7,527 nucleotides of DNA from Octopus sinensis (Eukaryota). Every line of letters begins with the position of its first letter. Positions within the stretch are counted from its first letter, which is position 1. Below the pieces are notes generated by a model. It had not been told where the DNA came from. It searched no databases and worked only from the letters and a program-made list of their open reading frames with translations. A program made the translations under genes and the position numbers. This document shows, in pieces, positions 1-7,527 of the stretch. The DNA is taken from assembly GCF_006345805.1 (NCBI RefSeq), contig NW_021828861.1, positions 1-7,527 of the forward strand, read 5' to 3'.

Positions 1-28
1 ACCTGGCTCCATCAAACTCAAACTCGTA

Positions 29-861
29 ATGGGACTATCCACAATACACAAGACCGCCACAGCAAATAGACCCAAGGTGGACACCACTGGCAACAGCACA
101 CACATCACCTCGATGCTCCTACTGAACATCAGAGGACTGCTAGCACTCAGTAACAGGACAAAAATCCCTTTCTTGAGAGACCTTGTTGCATGCAATCAAG
201 CCTTATGCATAGCACTTACGGAAACACACCTGAAACCGGACACAGCAGATGTGGAAATACACATACCACAGTATGTTGTACTACGGACCGACAAAAAAAA
301 GGAGTCATGAAAGTTTGCTATGTACATCCGCGAAGACCTCACACCCCAGGTCCTTTTGTCATACTCAAATTCGTGTGTGACACACTAATTGTACATAGAA
401 GGCAACTTGGTGTAGTTTATTGTGCTACATATCGCCCTCCAGATGCTCCAAGCCATGTAGGCAAGTTTGAAGATTGCCTTATAAAAATAGAAGTTCTAGT
501 CACACTAGAACAACACGTAAGTGTACTTCTTATGGGAGACTTCAATCTGCCCAATGTCAGATGGCCCGAGGGCCTTTCTCTCCCAGGAATGACACGATGC
601 GAACGAGGACAGGCGAGGTCCCTCCTGAGCCTCATCAACACTCTGTACATGGAGCAAATAATACTCCAACCAACCAGGGCAGGTAACATACTGGATCTCT
701 GCTTCACAAATAATATGGATCTCATCCATAAAGTGAAAAGGACACCGACACTACTCTCGGATCACAACATGATAGAGCTGACCATGTACGGGCCAAAGGA
801 AAGCATGGACATGCAGTCTACAAGAAACTCTCAGAATCTTTCCAGCTTGAACTTCCATTAG
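29..861 (+). pseudogene. Apurinic/apyrimidinic-like endonuclease domain of LINE A ORF2, frameshifted
   Basis: Motifs in order: LNIRGL and ALTETHL (ORF 29-310), then YRPP, MGDFN (GDFN 535-546), PTR.GNILDL and LSDHN (SDHN 757-768) in ORF 190-861. Frameshifts lie around the A-run at 293-300 and near 370. The TAG at 859-861 is premature, since the same frame continues ANWKQIEK... into ORF 937-1197. Confidence 0.92.
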
Positions 862-3025
862 GCAAACTGGAAACAAATTGAGAAAGAGATCCTCAAACAA
901 AACTGGCCTGAATGTCTCTCCTCGTCAGACATCGACATGAAACTTCAACAATTCATGTCTGTAATGCAAGCCATGTGCTACAAATATGTCCCAGAGATAA
1001 AGGCCACCGTATACAAGAACAAAATCCCCAGAGAGAGAAAAATTCTAATGAGACGGCGTACAAAAGTTTCAAATTGCCTAAACAAACAAATTGAAAGCAG
1101 TGAAAAGGCCCGCCTGAAAATAAAACTGTTGGAAATTGAAAAATGTCTGCAACTCTCCCATGAAAAAGAAAGAGCAGGCAAAAAGCCTGGGCTATAGATA
1201 ACATAAAAATCTAACCCCAGAGCTTTCTACAGGTATGCCAAGAACCGCTACGGTGCACTGTAGGATAGGGCCACTCCTTGAAAAGGATGGCACAACTCAC
1301 AGGAAATCCAATGAGGATAAGTGAAATACTGAATGAGCAATTCAAGAGTATTTTCACTCCACTCCTAGGGCATTTTCAAGTCAGCAATCCAACTGACTTC
1401 TTTACCACTGCAGATATCAGAGGCAGCGATGATTGATTACATCAATATAAAGGAAGACGATGTAATAAAGGCTATAGATGAAATGAAAACAAACTCAGCT
1501 ACTGGCCCCGATGGATTCCCAGCAATCCTTCTAAAAGTATGTAAGAGAGTCCTAGCAAGACCACTGCAGTTCATCTTTCAGAGCTTCCTTGCAACTGGCA
1601 AACTTCCAAGAAAACTAAAGGAAGGTAAAATATTCCTATTCATAAAGGGTTAGCAGAGCGGAGGCAAGAACTACAGACCTATCTCTCTGACCTCACACAT
1701 CAGCAAGGTCATGGAACGAATAGTCAAAGGAAACTAATCACCTTCCTTGAAGAAAATTTCCAACCGGAAAAGCTGCCTAACTCAGCTCCTAACTCAGCTC
1801 CTACAACACTATGACTGGGTGCTGAAACGACTGCTCAACCACTCAAATGTGGAAGTCATATATCTCGACTTTGCAAAGGCCTTTGATAAAGTCGATCATG
1901 GAATGATATGTCACAAATTGCGTGATCTTGGCATAGTTGGAAAATTGGGAGAATGGCTTCATGACTTTCTGAAGGATAGAAGCCAGGTGGTAGTAGCCAT
2001 TAACACGCAAATAGTGAGCGGTGTTCCGCAAGGCACTGTTTTGGGACCACTACTGTTCATAATGGCCCTCTCAGACATGCCCTCAGCCACGCAGAGAGCC
2101 ACGATCACAAGTTATGCAGATGATACAAAAGTTTCACAGGCAATACAGAACCCTGAAGACACTATGCACCTGCAATGTGAGCTGAACAAAATAAACAAGT
2201 GGGCTGAAAAGAATAGCATGCAGTTCAATGCTGAAAAGTTTCAAGCTTTATGCTATCAGCATGCAAAACTAAATGCAATACCCAATAAATACACTGGACC
2301 TGGAGGGATTGCAATCCCAGAGGCACAATCAGTGCAAGACCTGGGTATTTACATGAGTGATGATGCAACCTTTCATGTGCATGTTGCTAAATTGGCAATG
2401 AAATGTAGGCGGCTGACCGGATGGATTCTTAAAACCTTTAGAACAAGAGACCAGGAAACCATGATGGTCCTCTGGACGACACTTGTCCTAAGCCACTTTG
2501 ACTATTGCTCTCAGCTATGGTCACCATCCAGTGTCAAGTTAATCACAGAACTTGAGGCGATCCAACGAAGCTACACGAAGAAGATAGCCTCTGTGCAGCA
2601 TATAAGCTATTGGGAAAGACTCAAGGGACTGAGACTCTATTCCTTAGAGCGTAGGCGAGAAAGATATGCCATAATATACATCTGGAAGATCCTAGAAGGA
2701 CTTGTCCCAAACTTTGGCATCGAGAGTTACACAAATACTAGAACTGGGCGTCACTGTATAGTGCCAAGGACTCTAAATTTGCCATCAAGATGTAGGACAA
2801 GATACTGTGATAGCCTGGGCTTCAGAGGCCCACAGCTCTTCAATATCCTCCCGAAGAACCTGAGAGACCTGCATGGGGTGGATGCAGATGTCTTTAAAAT
2901 AAAACTGGATCTCTTCCTGTCAGGTGTCCCAGATGAACCAACTTCACGGACAGGAGGTGCAGATGAGGGCAGTTGCATCGAACTCTCTCATGCACCAAAT
3001 GGCAATTGCTAAAAAGCATTCGTGA
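862..3025 (+). pseudogene. Linker, reverse transcriptase and C-terminal region of LINE A ORF2, disrupted
   Basis: Motifs: SATGPDGFP, NYRPISLTS (~1669-1695), YLDFAKAFD (1861-1887), GVPQG (2020-2034), YADD (2113-2124), DLGI. There are several frameshifts and stops (~1180-1320, ~1650, ~1730-1770). Removing one extra A at 2950 restores RQEVQMRAVASNSLMHQ..., matching LINE B, and ends at TGA 3023-3025. Confidence 0.93.
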
Positions 3026-3051
3026 AGTAAAATCATGTAGCAACACCAAAT

Positions 3052-3090
3052 GGCGGTGCCCCAGCATGGCCACAGCTCGTGAGCTGAAAC
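3052..3090 (+). other. LINE A 3'-terminal double stem-loop (putative RT recognition signal)
   Basis: GGCGGTGC-CCCA-GCATGGCC-A-CAGCTC-GT-GAGCTG-AAAC. Homologous copies lie at 5221-5259 (+) and 5587-5617 (-). The function is inferred. Confidence 0.75.
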
Positions 3091-3120
3091 TAGATAAAAT
3101 AAAATAAATAAAATAATATA

Positions 3121-3124
<4 letters not shown>

Positions 3125-3159
<35 letters not shown>

Positions 3160-3170
3160 ATTGATTGATT
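3125..3170. repeat. (AGT)~11-12 microsatellite followed by (GATT)3
   Basis: Read directly from the sequence. Confidence 0.97.
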
Positions 3171-3292
3171 GGTAAATCTGAAGTATATTCGACTACATAG
3201 ATACAATTTGGAAAATATTCGATCATTATTTCTAGCAGGTCTAGCAACCATATTGTACGGGTTTATTGGTTGGTGCGACAGATTATGTTGTC

Positions 3293-3310
3293 ATTATTAT
3301 TATTATTATT
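3293..3310. repeat. (ATT)6 microsatellite
   Basis: Read directly from the sequence; lies just upstream of SINE 1. Confidence 0.9.
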
Positions 3311-3321
3311 ACTATAATTAA

Positions 3322-3890
3322 GGTGGCGAGCTGGCAGAATGGTTAGCACACCGGGCGGAATGCTTAGCCGTATTTCGTCTGCCGTTACGTTCTGAGTTCA
3401 AATTCCGCCGAGGTCGACTTTGCCTTTCATCATTACGGGGTGGATAAATTAAGTACCAGTTACGCACTGGGGTCGATGTAATCGACTTAATCCGTTTGTC
3501 TGTCCTTGTTTGTCACCTCTGTGTTTAGCCCCTTGTGAGTAGTAAAGAAATTGGTATTTCGTTTGCCGCTACGTTCTGAGTTCAAATTCCGCCGAGGTCG
3601 ACTTTGCCTTTCATCCTTTCGGGTTCGATAAGATAAGTACCAGTTGAACACTGGGGTCGATATAATCTACTTAGACCTTCCCCCGAAATAGCTGGTCTTG
3701 TACGAAAATTTAAAACCAATATGTATGATTTTACGCTCTGAGTTCAAATTCCACTGAGGTCAACTTTGCCATTCATCTTTTCGGGATCGATAAAATAGGC
3801 ACCAAAAAGAGCACAGGGGTCCAAGTAATCGACTAATCCCCGCCCCCAAGATTTCAGGCCTTGTGCTAATAGTGAATAGGATTGTTATTT
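3322..3890 (+). mobile_element. tRNA-derived SINE 1 with one head and three tandem copies of the B-box plus central domain
   Basis: A-box TGGCAGAATGG (3332-3342) and B-box-like GAGTTCAAATTCC (3394-3406). The block TCTGAGTTCAAATTCC..GAGGTC.ACTTTGCC.TTCATC..TCGGG.TCGATA..TAAGTACCAG starts at 3391, 3575 and 3737. It resembles an abundant octopus SINE, and its central domain resembles the Meta/Nin-type domains (recalled, not verified). Confidence 0.88.
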
Positions 3891-4091
3891 TTTATGATGG
3901 GAGAAGGGGGAGAGATAGGCAGAGAGGAAGACAGGAAGTTAAGCATATCGCGTTGCACTTAAGTACATTATGACATAAAACAGTGCAGTCGTTTAGTGTG
4001 GGATGTGTTCTGTGAAGATTTACCGTTAAATTTACTCATTTCATTGTCATTTATCAAATACAGTCTCGCCATTTCAAAGACAGATTTTGAA

Positions 4092-4103
4092 ATATATATA
4101 TAA

Positions 4104-4143
<40 letters not shown>

Positions 4144-4157
4144 GTATGTATATATAC
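4092..4157. repeat. (TA)n/(CA)15 compound microsatellite
   Basis: (CA)15 at 4107-4136, flanked by TA runs. Confidence 0.97.
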
Positions 4158-4384
4158 TTTATACTTTCTAAACTTTCCTGTATTTTCTGGTCTTTCCTTT
4201 TGTCGTCTCTTCGTACTGTGGACACACATTTTTTTTCTCTCCTTGTTTTTTCTGTGTCTCTTTCTGTAGAAGAGCGTAGGCTCGAAATGTAAAAGACTTT
4301 TCAATTCCTGAGCGTTATACTAGTACATTTGTTTGTTTTGTACACCACCTGTTTTTGTCTTTTGTTTTTTTCGTAAACTCTCCT
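4158..4384 (+). repeat. Short pyrimidine-rich interspersed repeat, possibly a Penelope-like terminal repeat remnant
   Basis: T/C-rich ~225 bp segment between microsatellites, containing AGAAGAGC-GTAG-GCTC-GAAATGTA (4268-4291), a degenerate hammerhead-like core. Its status as a dispersed repeat is recalled and cannot be shown from this window. Confidence 0.4.
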
Positions 4385-4420
4385 TATATATGTATATGTG
4401 TGTGTGTGTGTGTATTTATA
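4385..4420. repeat. (TA)n/(TG)8 microsatellite
   Basis: (TG)8 at 4397-4412. Confidence 0.95.
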
Positions 4421-4637
4421 GGGGTTATTTGAAATTTCCGTATTGGACGTTAAAATGTAATTGGATGCTTAACCAAGACGACTATTCATGGGGAACACTC
4501 TATTGCGTTATTAAATGACATTTGATCTTCCAAATTCCAACGCAAAGATTCCAAACACATATATGTGTGTGATGACCAAGTGTCATCCGAAGGTTTATTA
4601 AACCAGAACATTAAGGATCATACAAACCAAACACCAT

Positions 4638-4866
4638 TTATATCTATATATACGTGTGAGTGCGTACGTGTGAGTGCGTGCGTGTGTGTGTGTGTGTATA
4701 TATATATATACATATATATATACATATACATATATATATACATATAATACATATTATATATATACACATATAACTCATATATATATACATATATATGTAT
4801 ATATATATATATATATACATAATATATATATGTATATAATATATATACTGTATATATATATATATA
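4638..4866. repeat. Compound microsatellite: TG/CG-rich tract then a long imperfect (TA)n
   Basis: TACGTGTGAGTGCG occurs twice (4651-4678), followed by (TG)n and ~170 bp of TA with CA interruptions. Confidence 0.95.
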
Positions 4867-4871
4867 GCATA

Positions 4872-5272
4872 GGCGGCAGGAGTGGCTGTGTGGTAAGTAG
4901 CTTCCTTACCAACCACATGGTTCCGGGTTCAGTCCCACTGCGTGGCATCTTGGGCAAGTCTTCTGCTATAGCCCCGGGCCGACCAAAGCCTTGTGAGTGG
5001 ATTTGGTAGACGGAAACTGAAAAGAAGCCTGTCGTATATATATATATATATATAATGTATGTGTGTGTATGTGTTTGTGTGTCTGTGTTTGTCCCCCTAG
5101 CATTGCATGACAACCGATGCTGGTGTGTTATGTCCCCGTCACTTAGCGGTTCGGCAAAGAGATAGATAGAATAAGTACTGGGCTTACAAAGAATAAGTCC
5201 CGGGTCGGGTGCTCGATAAAGGCGGTGCTCCAGCATGGCCGCAGTCAAATGACTGAAACAACAATAAAAGAG
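4872..5272 (+). mobile_element. tRNA-derived CORE-like SINE 2 with a LINE-derived 3' tail
   Basis: A-box TGGCTGTGTGG (4883-4893), B-box GGTTCAGTCCC (4926-4936) and CORE-like CTTGGGCAAGTC (4949-4960, compare MIR CCTTGGGCAAGT). It has an internal TA/TG microsatellite (5035-5091), and its 3' end (5221-5259) is homologous to the 3' ends of both LINEs. Confidence 0.88.
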
Positions 5273-5586
5273 TATATACATATACCTATATATATACATA
5301 TACATAATATATATACATATACATACATATATATGTATACATATATATAATATATATGTATACATACATGTATATATATATACATACATATATGTATATA
5401 TGTATACATACATGTATATATAATACATACATATGTATATATATATATTATATAATATATATATATATGTATACATACATTATATATATCATACATACGT
5501 ATATATATATATTATATATATATAATATATAGATAGATAGATAGAACATGTGTATATATATATAATATATTATATATATACATGTA
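5273..5586. repeat. Long imperfect (TA)n/(TACA)n microsatellite with a short (GATA)n
   Basis: Read directly from the sequence; separates the SINE 2 3' end from the LINE B 3' end. Confidence 0.97.
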
Positions 5587-7527
5587 TTCAGAGCTGCGGC
5601 CATGCTGATGCACCGCCGTTTTTGCTAGCACTGTTATTGCGAAGAACCTCGTCTAATATGTGGCACTTGGTGAAGAATGGAGTTTGATATAGCTACTCTC
5701 GTTTGCACCTCTTGCCGTGAGGTAGGGTCATCTGGGACTCTCGACAGGAAGATGTCCAGCTTTGATTTAAAAACCGCTACATCTACTTTGTGCAAGTTCC
5801 TCAGACTCTTTGGGAGAATATTAAAAAGCTGTGGGCCCTTGAAACCCAGGCTGTTGCAGAAGCTGGTCCTGAAGCGTGATGGCATTGCTGGGATCTTTGG
5901 CACTATGCAGTGTCGTCCCGTTCTAGCATTGGTGTAGCTTACAATGCCAAAATTTGGCACAATTCCTTCCAGGATCTTCCACACATATATTACTGCATAC
6001 CTCTCCCGTCTTCTCTCCAGGGAGTAGAGTCTTAGCTGTTTCAACCTTTCTCAGTAGCTGAGCTGTTGCAAAGAGACGATCTTCTTTGTGAATCTTCTCT
6101 GGATTGCTTCAAGGTCCGCTATTAATTTTACACTGGTGGGTGACCATAGCTGTGAGCAGTAATCCAGGCGGCTGAGGACGAATGTCCGCCAGAGGACCAT
6201 CATGGTTTCCTTATCTCTGGTTCTGAATGTTCTTAGGATCCACCCAGCCAGTCGTCTGCACTTTGTCGCCATCCTGGTAATGTGCACTTGGAAAGAGGTA
6301 TCATCACTCATGTCGATACCCAGGTCCCTCACAGACTTAGGCGCTGGGATTGAAATTCCCTGTGGACCGGTGTATCCTGTAAGTTTAATATTCAGTTTTG
6401 GATGCTGGTAGCATGGCCTGGAATTTTTCAGCATTAAACTGCATATTATTATCCTCAGCTCATCTGTAGATTGAGTCCAACTCCTGCTGTAGGTGTGCAA
6501 CATAGCTGGGGTTCTGCATTTTCTGCGAGACTTTCGTATCGTCTGCATAGCTGGCCAGAGTGGCTATCCGGGCATTTGAGGGCATATCTGAGAGGGCCAC
6601 TATAAAAAGCAATTGTCCCAAGACAGTGCCCTGTGGAACACCGCTCACTATTTGTGTGTTCATAGAGGTGGCTCCATTAACCACTGCTGCCTGACTCCTA
6701 TCCAAGTTTTCCAGCTATGCCGAGGTCACGCAGTTTGTGGCATATCATACCATGATCCACCTTGTCAAAAGCTTTTGCAAAATCAAGGTAGATTACGTCC
6801 ACATTTGATTTGTTGAATAACTGCCTCAACACCCAGTCATAATATAAGAGCTGGGTCAGGCAGCTCCTACCTGGTCGAAAACCATGCTGGGTATCACTCA
6901 GCAAGTTATTTTCCTCAAGGAATGCGATTAGTTTCTTTCTGACTATCCGTTCCATGACTTTGCTGATGTGTGAAGTCAGAGAGATAGGCCTATAGTTTTT
7001 GGCATCTGCTCTACTTCCCCCTTTATGTATTGGGCATATTATTCCCTCCTTCAGCTTGCTTGGCAGTTTGCCATTCGCAAGAGCTCTGGAGAGAATCTTG
7101 AGGGGTTTTGCCGGGGCAGGCTTACACGCTTTGAGGAGGATGGCTGGGAAACCATCTGGACCAGCAGCTGAGTTTGTGTCCACTTCATCTATGGCTAGTA
7201 GGACATCTTTTTCGCTAATGTCAATACATTCTGTTGTAACCGCCTCGCTAGTTATAGGTGAGGCGGCAAAGAAGTCCACTGGTTCGTTCACTTGTCTGTG
7301 TTCCAACGGGGTGGTAAAGACACTTTTGAACTGGTCATTCAGCATCTCACTGATCTTAGTTGGACTGTCTGTGAGGGAGCCATCTTTTGGAGGAGGGTCC
7401 ATCTTGTAGTACACTGAGACTGTTTCTTTTCTCGTAATGAAAGAAGGCCTTTGTGTTGATTTAATAATTTTTTATAACCAGGCTTCTTTGTCTGCTTTCT
7501 CCTTCACATAGGATTGTTGCAGCCTTT
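5584..7527 (-). mobile_element. Non-LTR retrotransposon (LINE copy B), same family as copy A but a diverged lineage; decayed, continues beyond window
   Basis: Minus-strand ORF fragments are collinear with LINE A. The 3' motif GGCGGTGC-ATCA-GCATGGCC-G-CAGCTC-TGAA lies at 5617-5587. Confidence 0.95.
5634..7527 (-). pseudogene. Reverse transcriptase and C-terminal region of LINE B ORF2, disrupted
   Basis: Motifs: SAAGPDGFP, KNYRPISLTS, QHGFRPGRSC, YLDFAKAFD, GVPQG, YADD (6549-6538), DLGI, YSLERRRERY; terminal TAA at 5636-5634. Premature TGA codons at 6460-6462 and 6051-6053 correspond to Trp in copy A. There is a deletion/frameshift at ~6700 and a frameshift near 6415. Confidence 0.93.

What the first reader, a model, noticed from the sequence alone, without database searches (positions are those of the whole stretch)
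3052..5617. Shared 3' double hairpin links both LINEs to the CORE-like SINE: a LINE/SINE partner system with covarying structure
Seen: the same terminal motif occurs in three elements. LINE A (3052-3090) reads GGCGGTGC[CCCA]GCATGGCC A CAGCTC[GT]GAGCTG AAAC. SINE 2 (5221-5259) reads GGCGGTGC[TCCA]GCATGGCC G CAGTCA[AA]TGACTG AAAC. LINE B (5617-5587, minus strand) reads GGCGGTGC[ATCA]GCATGGCC G CAGCTC TGAA. Hairpin 1 arms are identical in all three (7 of 8 pairs, one G-U, a constant G-G mismatch) and only the loop varies. Hairpin 2 differs between LINE A and the SINE on both arms (CTC/GAG versus TCA/TGA) yet stays fully complementary. Established: stringent-type LINE RTs recognise a 3' stem-loop, and partner SINEs carry the same tail (e.g. 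eel UnaL2/UnaSINE1). Inference: this LINE family mobilises this SINE, and the double hairpin is the cis signal. I cannot tell whether this pairing has already been described.
Basis: partly seen in the sequence, partly recalled or inferred. Interest (0 to 1): 0.72.

Follow-up and report, generated by a model that had tools for sequence, protein, structure and literature searches.

The report
Octopus SINE wears CR1 double-hairpin tail
A very abundant short jumping element in this genome (likely an octopus's) ends in the same predicted two-hairpin RNA tail as a whole group of LINE retrotransposons, so it likely borrows their copying enzyme, probably from a sister family rather than from the two LINEs lying beside it.

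Summary
The motif is real: 72,411 exact copies in G000, reversed control 0. It is the fixed 3' end of both window LINE families (A 30 of 30; B 29 of 30, the window's B copy has lost hairpin 2) and of the SINE (64 of 67 bodies). Six more LINE families here and 4 of 5 marine-metagenome relatives (30-66% amino-acid identity) keep the same two stems, an invariant G.G mismatch and AAAC, with both-sided changes in 7 of 11 pairs. So the structure is conserved. Correction: the SINE's tail is closer to families E (49/55 nt, same terminal repeat) and C (same stem 2) than to A or B; no LINE with the SINE's exact tail was found. Insertions often stop within 5 nt of hairpin 1, and a second SINE has switched onto the tail there. 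This is a stringent-type SINE/LINE partnership, a known kind; I found the pair in no paper searched, but could not search Repbase, Dfam or SINEBase. Mobilisation is untested. Earlier scan notes on this genome describe a Tx1/SINE pair (apparently another SINE) and small-RNA/LINE-tail chimeras; none shown to me described this pair.

The parts
1..3120 (+). LINE A: decayed CR1-like (clade label recalled) non-LTR element, endonuclease + reverse transcriptase, broken by stops and frameshifts; runs to the window's first base
   Evidence: Pfam Exo_endo_phos_2 in 154-858 and RVT_1 in 1738-3009; 97% family members genome-wide
3052..3090 (+). LINE A tail: hairpin 1 (3 bp, G.G, 4 bp, 4-nt loop), 1-nt linker, hairpin 2 (5 bp, 4-nt loop), AAAC
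   Evidence: fold; 30 of 30 family loci found without the tail in the query end this way; top CM hit
3094..3120 (+). LINE A terminal short tandem repeat, period 5, A-rich
   Evidence: TRF; same in family copies
4871..5272 (+). SINE 2: A/B-box-like head, CORE-like segment (by eye), internal (TA)/(TG) run, a segment shared with the window's other SINE (about 5165-5220), tail
   Evidence: alignment with five other copies, 90% mean column identity; shared segment; 75 of 86 CM hits in 800 kb carry this body
5221..5259 (+). SINE 2 tail: same two hairpins + AAAC; stem 2 and loop 1 as in LINE family C, terminal repeat as in family E
5584..7527 (-). LINE B: second family (66% amino-acid identity to A in the C-terminal part), cut by the window end
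   Evidence: Pfam RVT_1; family search; identity matrix
5588..5617 (-). LINE B tail: hairpin 1 intact; 3' arm of hairpin 2, AAAC and terminal repeat lost in this copy
   Evidence: CM score 28.6 bits against 56.7 for A

Best explanation
The motif is the conserved 3' end of a deep group of CR1-like LINEs, and the SINE carries a captured copy of it, which likely lets the SINE RNA be bound and copied by those LINEs' ORF2 protein. Shown: the tail ends every family examined, is followed by a short family-specific repeat, and keeps two stems, a G.G mismatch and AAAC while the stem letters change. Inferred from stringent LINEs (PMC4176376): ORF2p binds the folded tail, nicks AT-rich or (TA)n DNA, primes on the terminal repeat and reverse-transcribes through both hairpins; a conserved basic patch between endonuclease and RT is the candidate binding site. 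The donor and main carrier was likely a member of the C/E/F side of the family tree (an unsampled or extinct sister of C and E, or E's ancestor), with A and B at most secondary carriers. Once the hairpins are copied the enzyme would lose its grip, which would explain insertions that stop, or jump to another RNA, at the base of hairpin 1.
For: Terminal position: A 30/30, B 29/30, C 26/30 with queries that excluded the tail; SINE 64/67; 83 of 86 CM hits in a random 800 kb follow a SINE 2 body (75) or LINE ORF2 (8), and 78 of 84 are followed by an A-rich run against 16% background. Structure: 94.8% of cells paired, 7 of 11 pairs with both-sided change, 0/500 shuffles, slid controls at most 43%; RNAalifold finds the same fold; stem 2 abuts AAAC beyond shuffle expectation in 13 of 14 tails, p 0.0006-0.028. 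Depth: families D, G, H and four metagenome elements at 30-47% identity to the A/B/C/E group keep the fold. Shared targets: (TA)3 within 30 nt 5' of SINE 2 heads 15/45 against 6/61 for the SINE with another tail (p 0.006) and 8% at random; 3' side 22/74 against 4/54 (p 0.002); LINE B 24/24. Competent partner exists: two family-E copies have uninterrupted 1011- and 1090-codon EN+RT frames. Portability: a second SINE head joined to the A-type tail at one junction in 3 independent insertions. Basic linker motif in 86 of 122 homologues.
Against: No mobilisation or binding assay. No LINE with the SINE's exact tail: a pattern joining an ORF2-end motif to the SINE's loop 2 gave 3 hits, all SINE bodies; that motif may simply be absent from the true partner. 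The SINE's loops match no family fully, although loops decide specificity in zebrafish L2 (PMC4176376). Ages fit imperfectly: nearest E copies are 0-0.5% diverged, SINE subfamilies have medians of 3.2% and 6.5%, C 4.8% (LINE values come from top hits only). Structure breaks: family H keeps only 3 bp of stem 2 (p 0.11), two metagenome elements have A.A in hairpin 1, D and G have G.G at the base of stem 2. TA bias is uneven (A 8/23, G 3/10, H 7/30) and 52 of 74 SINE 3' flanks lack it. I chose the 14 aligned rows and the structure was read from them; related rows inflate the shuffle control.
Confidence: 0.8

Rival explanations
1. The window's own families A and B are the SINE's specific partners.
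For: Hairpin 1 arms identical; A and B are abundant, with close copies 1.6% from their majority; B shares the SINE's linker base and a strong (TA)n bias (24/24); 19 of the first 100 exact tail hits are A-type.
Against: Stem 2, both loops and the terminal repeat differ from the SINE; E and C match better. A-type tails already have their own SINE follower with an A-type stem 2.
Confidence: 0.12
2. The tail was captured once and the hairpins persist without selection; both-sided changes come from short template switches in inverted repeats, and the SINE moves by a relaxed route that needs only an A-rich end.
For: Template switching can make multi-base compensatory changes (PMC8794818, abstract and opening). 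The A-versus-SINE change is two double transitions or one pair indel. Per-copy decay in the SINE tail does not spare the stems, as expected after insertion.
Against: The G.G mismatch is invariant in all 14 rows although template switching would tend to repair it; stem 2 keeps its position next to AAAC with unrelated letters in D, G, H and metagenome elements whose upstream 3' UTRs do not align; 64 of 67 SINE bodies keep the tail.
Confidence: 0.06
3. The LINE 'tails' are separate SINE fragments that landed at LINE ends.
For: SINE tails outnumber LINE tails about 9 to 1 and solo tails exist.
Against: The tail sits at one fixed distance from the ORF2 end in every family and has family-specific letters that follow the ORF2 tree; it is present in non-G000 relatives.
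Confidence: 0.01

Closest known systems
BivaCORE-SINE1 / BivaV-SINE2 with CR1-14_CGi in bivalves (Nishihara et al. 2016, PMC4824008; passages and part 3 of 4 of supplementary file 2 read)
   Same: Mollusc tRNA-type SINEs, one with a CORE domain, sharing a stem-loop 3' tail with a CR1-group LINE, with compensatory changes noted
   Different: The printed bivalve tails do not contain this motif; later work reassigns that partner to CR1-Zenon, said to be scarce in cephalopods (PMC11481361, PMC10294476, passages)
Amar_SINE-2_CORE with a CR1 of Archivesica marissinica (Martelossi et al. 2024, PMC11481361; passages and a term search of 8 supplementary files)
   Same: CORE SINE with a CR1 tail in a mollusc
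   Different: Its printed tail is another sequence; four short motifs of this tail had 0 hits in the supplements
UnaL2/UnaSINE1 and ZfL2-1/ZfL2-2 (Hayashi et al. 2014, PMC4176376; passages and section 19 read; eel pair also in Table 1 of PMC3747384)
   Same: Stringent recognition: 3' stem-loop plus short terminal repeat, bound by a basic region between EN and RT
   Different: L2 clade; recognition there is loop-specific and the two zebrafish LINEs do not accept each other's stem-loop. Here there are two hairpins, loops vary freely and the invariant parts are the G.G-containing stem base and AAAC
Amniote CR1 3' UTR hairpin + octamer (Suh et al. 2015, PMC4316615; passages)
   Same: Conserved 3' hairpin and terminal microsatellite across CR1 subfamilies, proposed RT recognition site
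   Different: Here the terminal repeat differs from family to family (periods 4 to 10) and there are two tandem hairpins
Octopus OR1/OR2 (CORE) SINEs (Ohshima and Okada 1994; paper not held, known only from citations in PMC4758252 and PMC4824008)
   Same: [quoted passage not shown]
   Different: Could not compare sequences; no octopus pair is in the SINE/LINE table of PMC3747384

Membership tests
Stringent-type SINE/LINE pair | SINE and LINE share the same 3'-terminal sequence | tested here: met
Stringent-type SINE/LINE pair | The shared tail is a conserved stem-loop with compensatory changes | tested here: met
   7 of 11 pairs, 0/500 shuffles, slid controls low; exceptions H, m367/m369
Stringent-type SINE/LINE pair | Ends in a short tandem repeat downstream of the stem-loop | tested here: met
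   family-specific repeats in A, A2, C, D, E, F, G, H and the SINE; B ends in a short A run
Stringent-type SINE/LINE pair | An autonomous partner with intact EN+RT exists | tested here: met
   2 of 4 family-E stretches fetched hold uninterrupted 1011- and 1090-codon frames; activity not shown
Stringent-type SINE/LINE pair | SINE and partner were active at the same time | tested here: inconclusive
   SINE 3.2% and 6.5% medians; C 4.8%, F 5.5%, A/B/D 1-2%, E/H 0%, LINE values from top hits only
Stringent-type SINE/LINE pair | Mobilisation in trans depends on the folded tail | not testable with these tools
   needs a cell assay; only natural tail switches and solo tails as indirect evidence
CR1 clade LINE | APE endonuclease + RT in ORF2, short 3' UTR | tested here: met
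   shared with other clades, so not diagnostic alone
CR1 clade LINE | RT groups with labelled CR1 references | not tested
   no labelled reference sequences were available; homologue list had one name only; Atlas names generic
CR1 clade LINE | CR1-type C-terminal motif (recalled), L2-type HWLP motif (recalled) absent | tested here: inconclusive
   SLERRRERY-type motif in 92 of 122 homologues, HWLP in 0 of 122; the clade meaning of both motifs is from memory
L2 clade (UnaL2/ZfL2) pair | L2-type ORF2 C-terminus and single loop-specific stem-loop | tested here: not met
   (recalled motif absent); two hairpins with variable loops
CORE-SINE (OR1/OR2) | tRNA-derived head with A and B boxes | tested here: inconclusive
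   box-like words by eye; ARAGORN and Rfam give no tRNA call
CORE-SINE (OR1/OR2) | Central CORE domain | tested here: inconclusive
   17 of 25 positions match the printed Cgi_CORE_1 segment by eye; only the 5' part
CORE-SINE (OR1/OR2) | Identity with the OR1 or OR2 consensus | not testable with these tools
   original paper and SINEBase supplements not held

The most novel reading that the evidence does not exclude
The ~45-nt double hairpin is a clade-wide, loop-blind handle: ORF2p of many co-existing families reads its shape (G.G stem base, coaxial second stem, AAAC) rather than a loop, so one SINE can be carried in relay by successive LINE families, and the point where the enzyme lets go at the base of hairpin 1 is a hot spot that mints new SINEs from any RNA it jumps to.
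Probability: 0.3. Interest if true: 0.7.

Novelty: new member of a known kind. Interest (0 to 1): 0.42.

Why it matters
It names a likely engine for one of the two big SINE classes of octopus genomes (roughly 250,000 copies if the 800-kb sample is representative) and gives a covariation-backed, 39-nt model of a CR1-like recognition element that is conserved far beyond this genome. Most mechanistic work on stringent LINEs is on L2; a set of eight co-resident families with the same stems and different loops is a ready-made panel to test whether CR1-like enzymes read shape or loop, and how SINEs outlive or swap their partners. The general principle is long known, so the surprise is moderate.

Tried and rejected
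Rfam: no family for the tail; only microsatellite-driven miRNA hits. Looking for a LINE with the SINE's exact tail: the pattern (373 hits, 30 loci read) gave family C, SINE variants and solos; the pattern gave 3 SINE copies. Looking for transversion-type stems (36 hits, 30 read): mostly decayed old SINE copies, one solo of a further family (L135). A hoped-for succession of SINE terminal repeats tracking F, C, then E is only hinted at (38, 7 and 1 copies by class, 18 unclassed) and was not claimed. Laying public contigs: family E sequence is held by runs of three coded organisms and by one 4,012-nt contig of a run guessed to be RNA, which shows neither transcription nor tail variants; the SINE X junction was not bridged by 31 nt on both sides in any listed piece, so no verdict. 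One of five metagenome contigs (L370) does not reach the ORF2 end. Sequence look-ups in earlier scan notes found nothing. Full-text search for four tail motifs found three unrelated papers. Clade naming through homologue names and the ESM Atlas failed. Only 6 stretches could be fetched for the full-length check, none from C or D.
Full report
Observation. Folding gives hairpin 1 as 3 bp, a G.G mismatch, 4 bp (one G.U) and a 4-nt loop, then a 1-nt linker, hairpin 2 as 5 bp with a 4-nt loop, then AAAC. A 39-position pattern has 72,411 exact matches in G000 (2.72 Gb) and its reversal none. The host is likely an octopus: the only named close homologue is from Argonauta and the SINE classes fit published octopus repeat surveys (PMC8967140, passages); I did not try to identify the assembly.

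Is the tail the LINE's own end? DNA queries that stopped short of the tail returned 30 loci each. All 30 A loci (one is the window; two share flanks) continue into the full tail, and 29 of 30 B loci do, the exception being the window copy. Of 67 SINE bodies found by body sequence alone in a random 800 kb (80 stretches of contigs C1-C17), 64 carry the tail and two of the other three keep its last part. A covariance model gave 94 matches at E up to 0.5 in window plus sample; I classified the 86 sample hits with E up to 0.01 and dropped 5 weaker ones: 75 follow a SINE 2 body, 8 follow LINE ORF2, 3 neither; 78 of the 84 with downstream sequence are followed by an A-rich 16-mer against 16% at random. 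Extrapolated, that is near 290,000 tails, about 250,000 on this SINE; this rests on the sample being typical.

More families. Excluding the SINE's upstream letters exposed family C (about 62% identical to A and B in the ORF2 C-terminal part), whose tail has the SINE's loop 1 and stem 2; 26 of 30 C loci have the tail within 5 edits and the other four have partial tails. Scanning loci with ORF2 C-termini exposed D, E, F, G, H, an A subfamily (A2) and a two-copy type I, each confirmed as a family except I (these queries included the tail, so their tail counts of 30/30, 30/30, 15/15, 14/15, 30/30 are not independent). Four of five marine-metagenome contigs with a related ORF2 end in the same motif. 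In the ORF2 tree D and G form a distant pair, H is long-branched, the four metagenome elements group, and C, E, F, B, A form a moderately supported group (82/97).

Covariation. On 14 rows (one natural copy per type; G, one metagenome element and the old SINE subfamily were left out; one row is out of register) 94.8% of cells pair against 82.6 +/- 1.9 in shuffles, 7 of 11 pairs show both-sided change, 0 of 500 shuffles reach this, and slid partners give at most 43%. RNAalifold predicts the same fold unaided. Because related rows inflate that control, I also shuffled the segment between hairpin 1 and AAAC in each of 14 tails: a stem as long as observed, in that position, arose with p 0.0006-0.028 in 13 and 0.11 in H. 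Reading the changes on the tree by eye gives about seven separate both-sided changes. Invariant are the two outer G-C pairs, the G.G mismatch, the G.U next to it, one inner G-C and the A run. Against: H has a 3-bp stem 2, two metagenome elements have A.A at pair 3, D and G have G.G at the base of stem 2. Template switching can create compensations without selection (PMC8794818, abstract and opening), but would not keep a mismatch and a fixed geometry across 30-47% protein identity.

Which partner? Over the hairpins plus 20 downstream bases the SINE matches E at 49/55 (downstream 20/20, including the 8-nt terminal repeat), C at 45/55 (hairpins 31/35), A 44/57, A2 43/58, B 43/57, F 42/56. No LINE with the SINE's exact tail turned up. 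Two SINE subfamilies lie at median 3.2% (n 24) and 6.5% (n 77) from their majority; the closest copies of C lie at 4.8%, F 5.5%, A and B 1.6%, E 0% (LINE figures are top hits, so they bound youth only). Two of four E stretches hold unbroken EN+RT frames. The simplest reading is capture from a C/E-like ancestor and carriage by that side of the tree; which enzyme did most of the work is open.

Independent support. SINE 2 heads have (TA)3 within 30 nt upstream in 15 of 45 cases, the window's other SINE (another tail) in 6 of 61 (p 0.006), random positions 8%; 3' side 22/74 against 4/54 (p 0.002) and 11%. LINE 3' flanks: B 24/24, E 23/27, D 21/25, F 7/10, C 10/22, A 8/23, G 3/10, H 7/30 (E's query held TA flank, A's long terminal repeat pushes the flank out of the 45-nt window). 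Among the first 100 exact hits, all 19 A-type tails were read: 10 follow 130-1,967 nt of LINE, 5 are solo tails cut within 5 nt of hairpin 1, and 4 are a second SINE ('X') joined to the tail at that point. Five of 15 in a 5-nt window has p about 1e-8 to 3e-6 under smooth truncation. In the random sample solos were rarer (at most 2 of 11 non-SINE hits). SINE X normally continues into two other tails (0 of 11 bodies in the random sample have this one); its four switched copies share junction, loop and terminal repeat and are three independent insertions, two being one duplicated site. One locus joins a decayed tRNA (Rfam E 0.006, below gathering score) and trailer to a C-type tail. This fits earlier scan notes on small-RNA/LINE-tail chimeras, which I could not confirm concern the same tail.

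Mechanism. Shown: position, family specificity, predicted fold, covariation, flank bias, truncation pile-up in one sample. From established work on stringent LINEs (PMC4176376, passages and section 19; PMC3747384, passages and Table 1): ORF2p binds the 3' stem-loop through a region between EN and RT, and SINEs with the tail are copied in trans. Inferred here: the same holds for this tail; a basic motif in the EN-RT linker, present in 86 of 122 homologues, is the candidate binding site; release at the base of hairpin 1 explains solos and tail capture. One difference from L2 stands out: there the loop decides specificity, here the loops are the least conserved part and the SINE's pair of loops matches no LINE found.

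Known or new. CORE-SINE/CR1 pairs with compensated stem-loops are published for bivalves (PMC4824008, PMC11481361), with other tail sequences. Nine full-text searches and the pair table of PMC3747384 showed no octopus pair or this motif; a 2026 octopus repeat annotation lists CR1 and tRNA-CORE classes and has no use of 'partner' or 'tail' (PMC13282606, part 1 of 3 and term search). Ohshima and Okada 1994, Albertin 2015, the SINEBase supplements, file 1 of two supplements, Repbase and Dfam were not available and may hold the SINE or the pairing. The clade label CR1 and the labels CORE and Deu rest on recalled motifs and by-eye comparison. Verdict: a real, well-supported new member of a known kind; interest 0.42.

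Noticed in passing
window 3322-3550, 3554-3673, 3716-3835: A different abundant SINE with another tail, here as one long copy and two partial copies in tandem; probably the self-nesting SINE that earlier scan notes pair with Tx1-like LINEs.
   Followed up: partly
window 5165-5220 and 3445-3490: SINE 2's segment just before the tail resembles the middle of the other SINE, so SINE 2 looks like a mosaic of CORE-like, Deu/Nin-like (recalled label) and CR1-tail modules.
   Followed up: partly
L006, L017, L371, L379 (G000:C1): A third SINE head and body occurs with three different tails; the minority form has switched onto the A2-type double hairpin.
   Followed up: yes
L100 and L101, about 75-95 nt before the tail: SINE 2 head joined directly to its own tail, skipping the body, again at the base of hairpin 1.
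   Followed up: no
L119:1423-1545: Decayed tRNA plus trailer fused to a C-type tail.
   Followed up: partly
L423:3110-4528 (-): Probable ORF1 of family E with only weak zf-CCCH/Torus hits below cut-off.
   Followed up: no
L306-L308 (G000:C17:6406084-6407119): Three head-to-tail copies of one truncated family-E insertion with shared flank, likely a local tandem duplication.
   Followed up: no
L078, L136, L140, L143, L146 and others: An older SINE 2 subfamily with a longer spacer before the tail, A/E-type loop 1 and a 7-nt terminal repeat like family F's.
   Followed up: partly
window 5273-5587: SINE 2 and LINE B end tail to tail in the same long (TA)-rich array; opposed LINE A and B give a 74% inverted repeat of 700 nt that could form double-stranded RNA if read through.
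   Followed up: no
L367:1990-2160: In one metagenome element a short palindromic insert lies in the 3' UTR between the ORF2 end and the tail.
   Followed up: no
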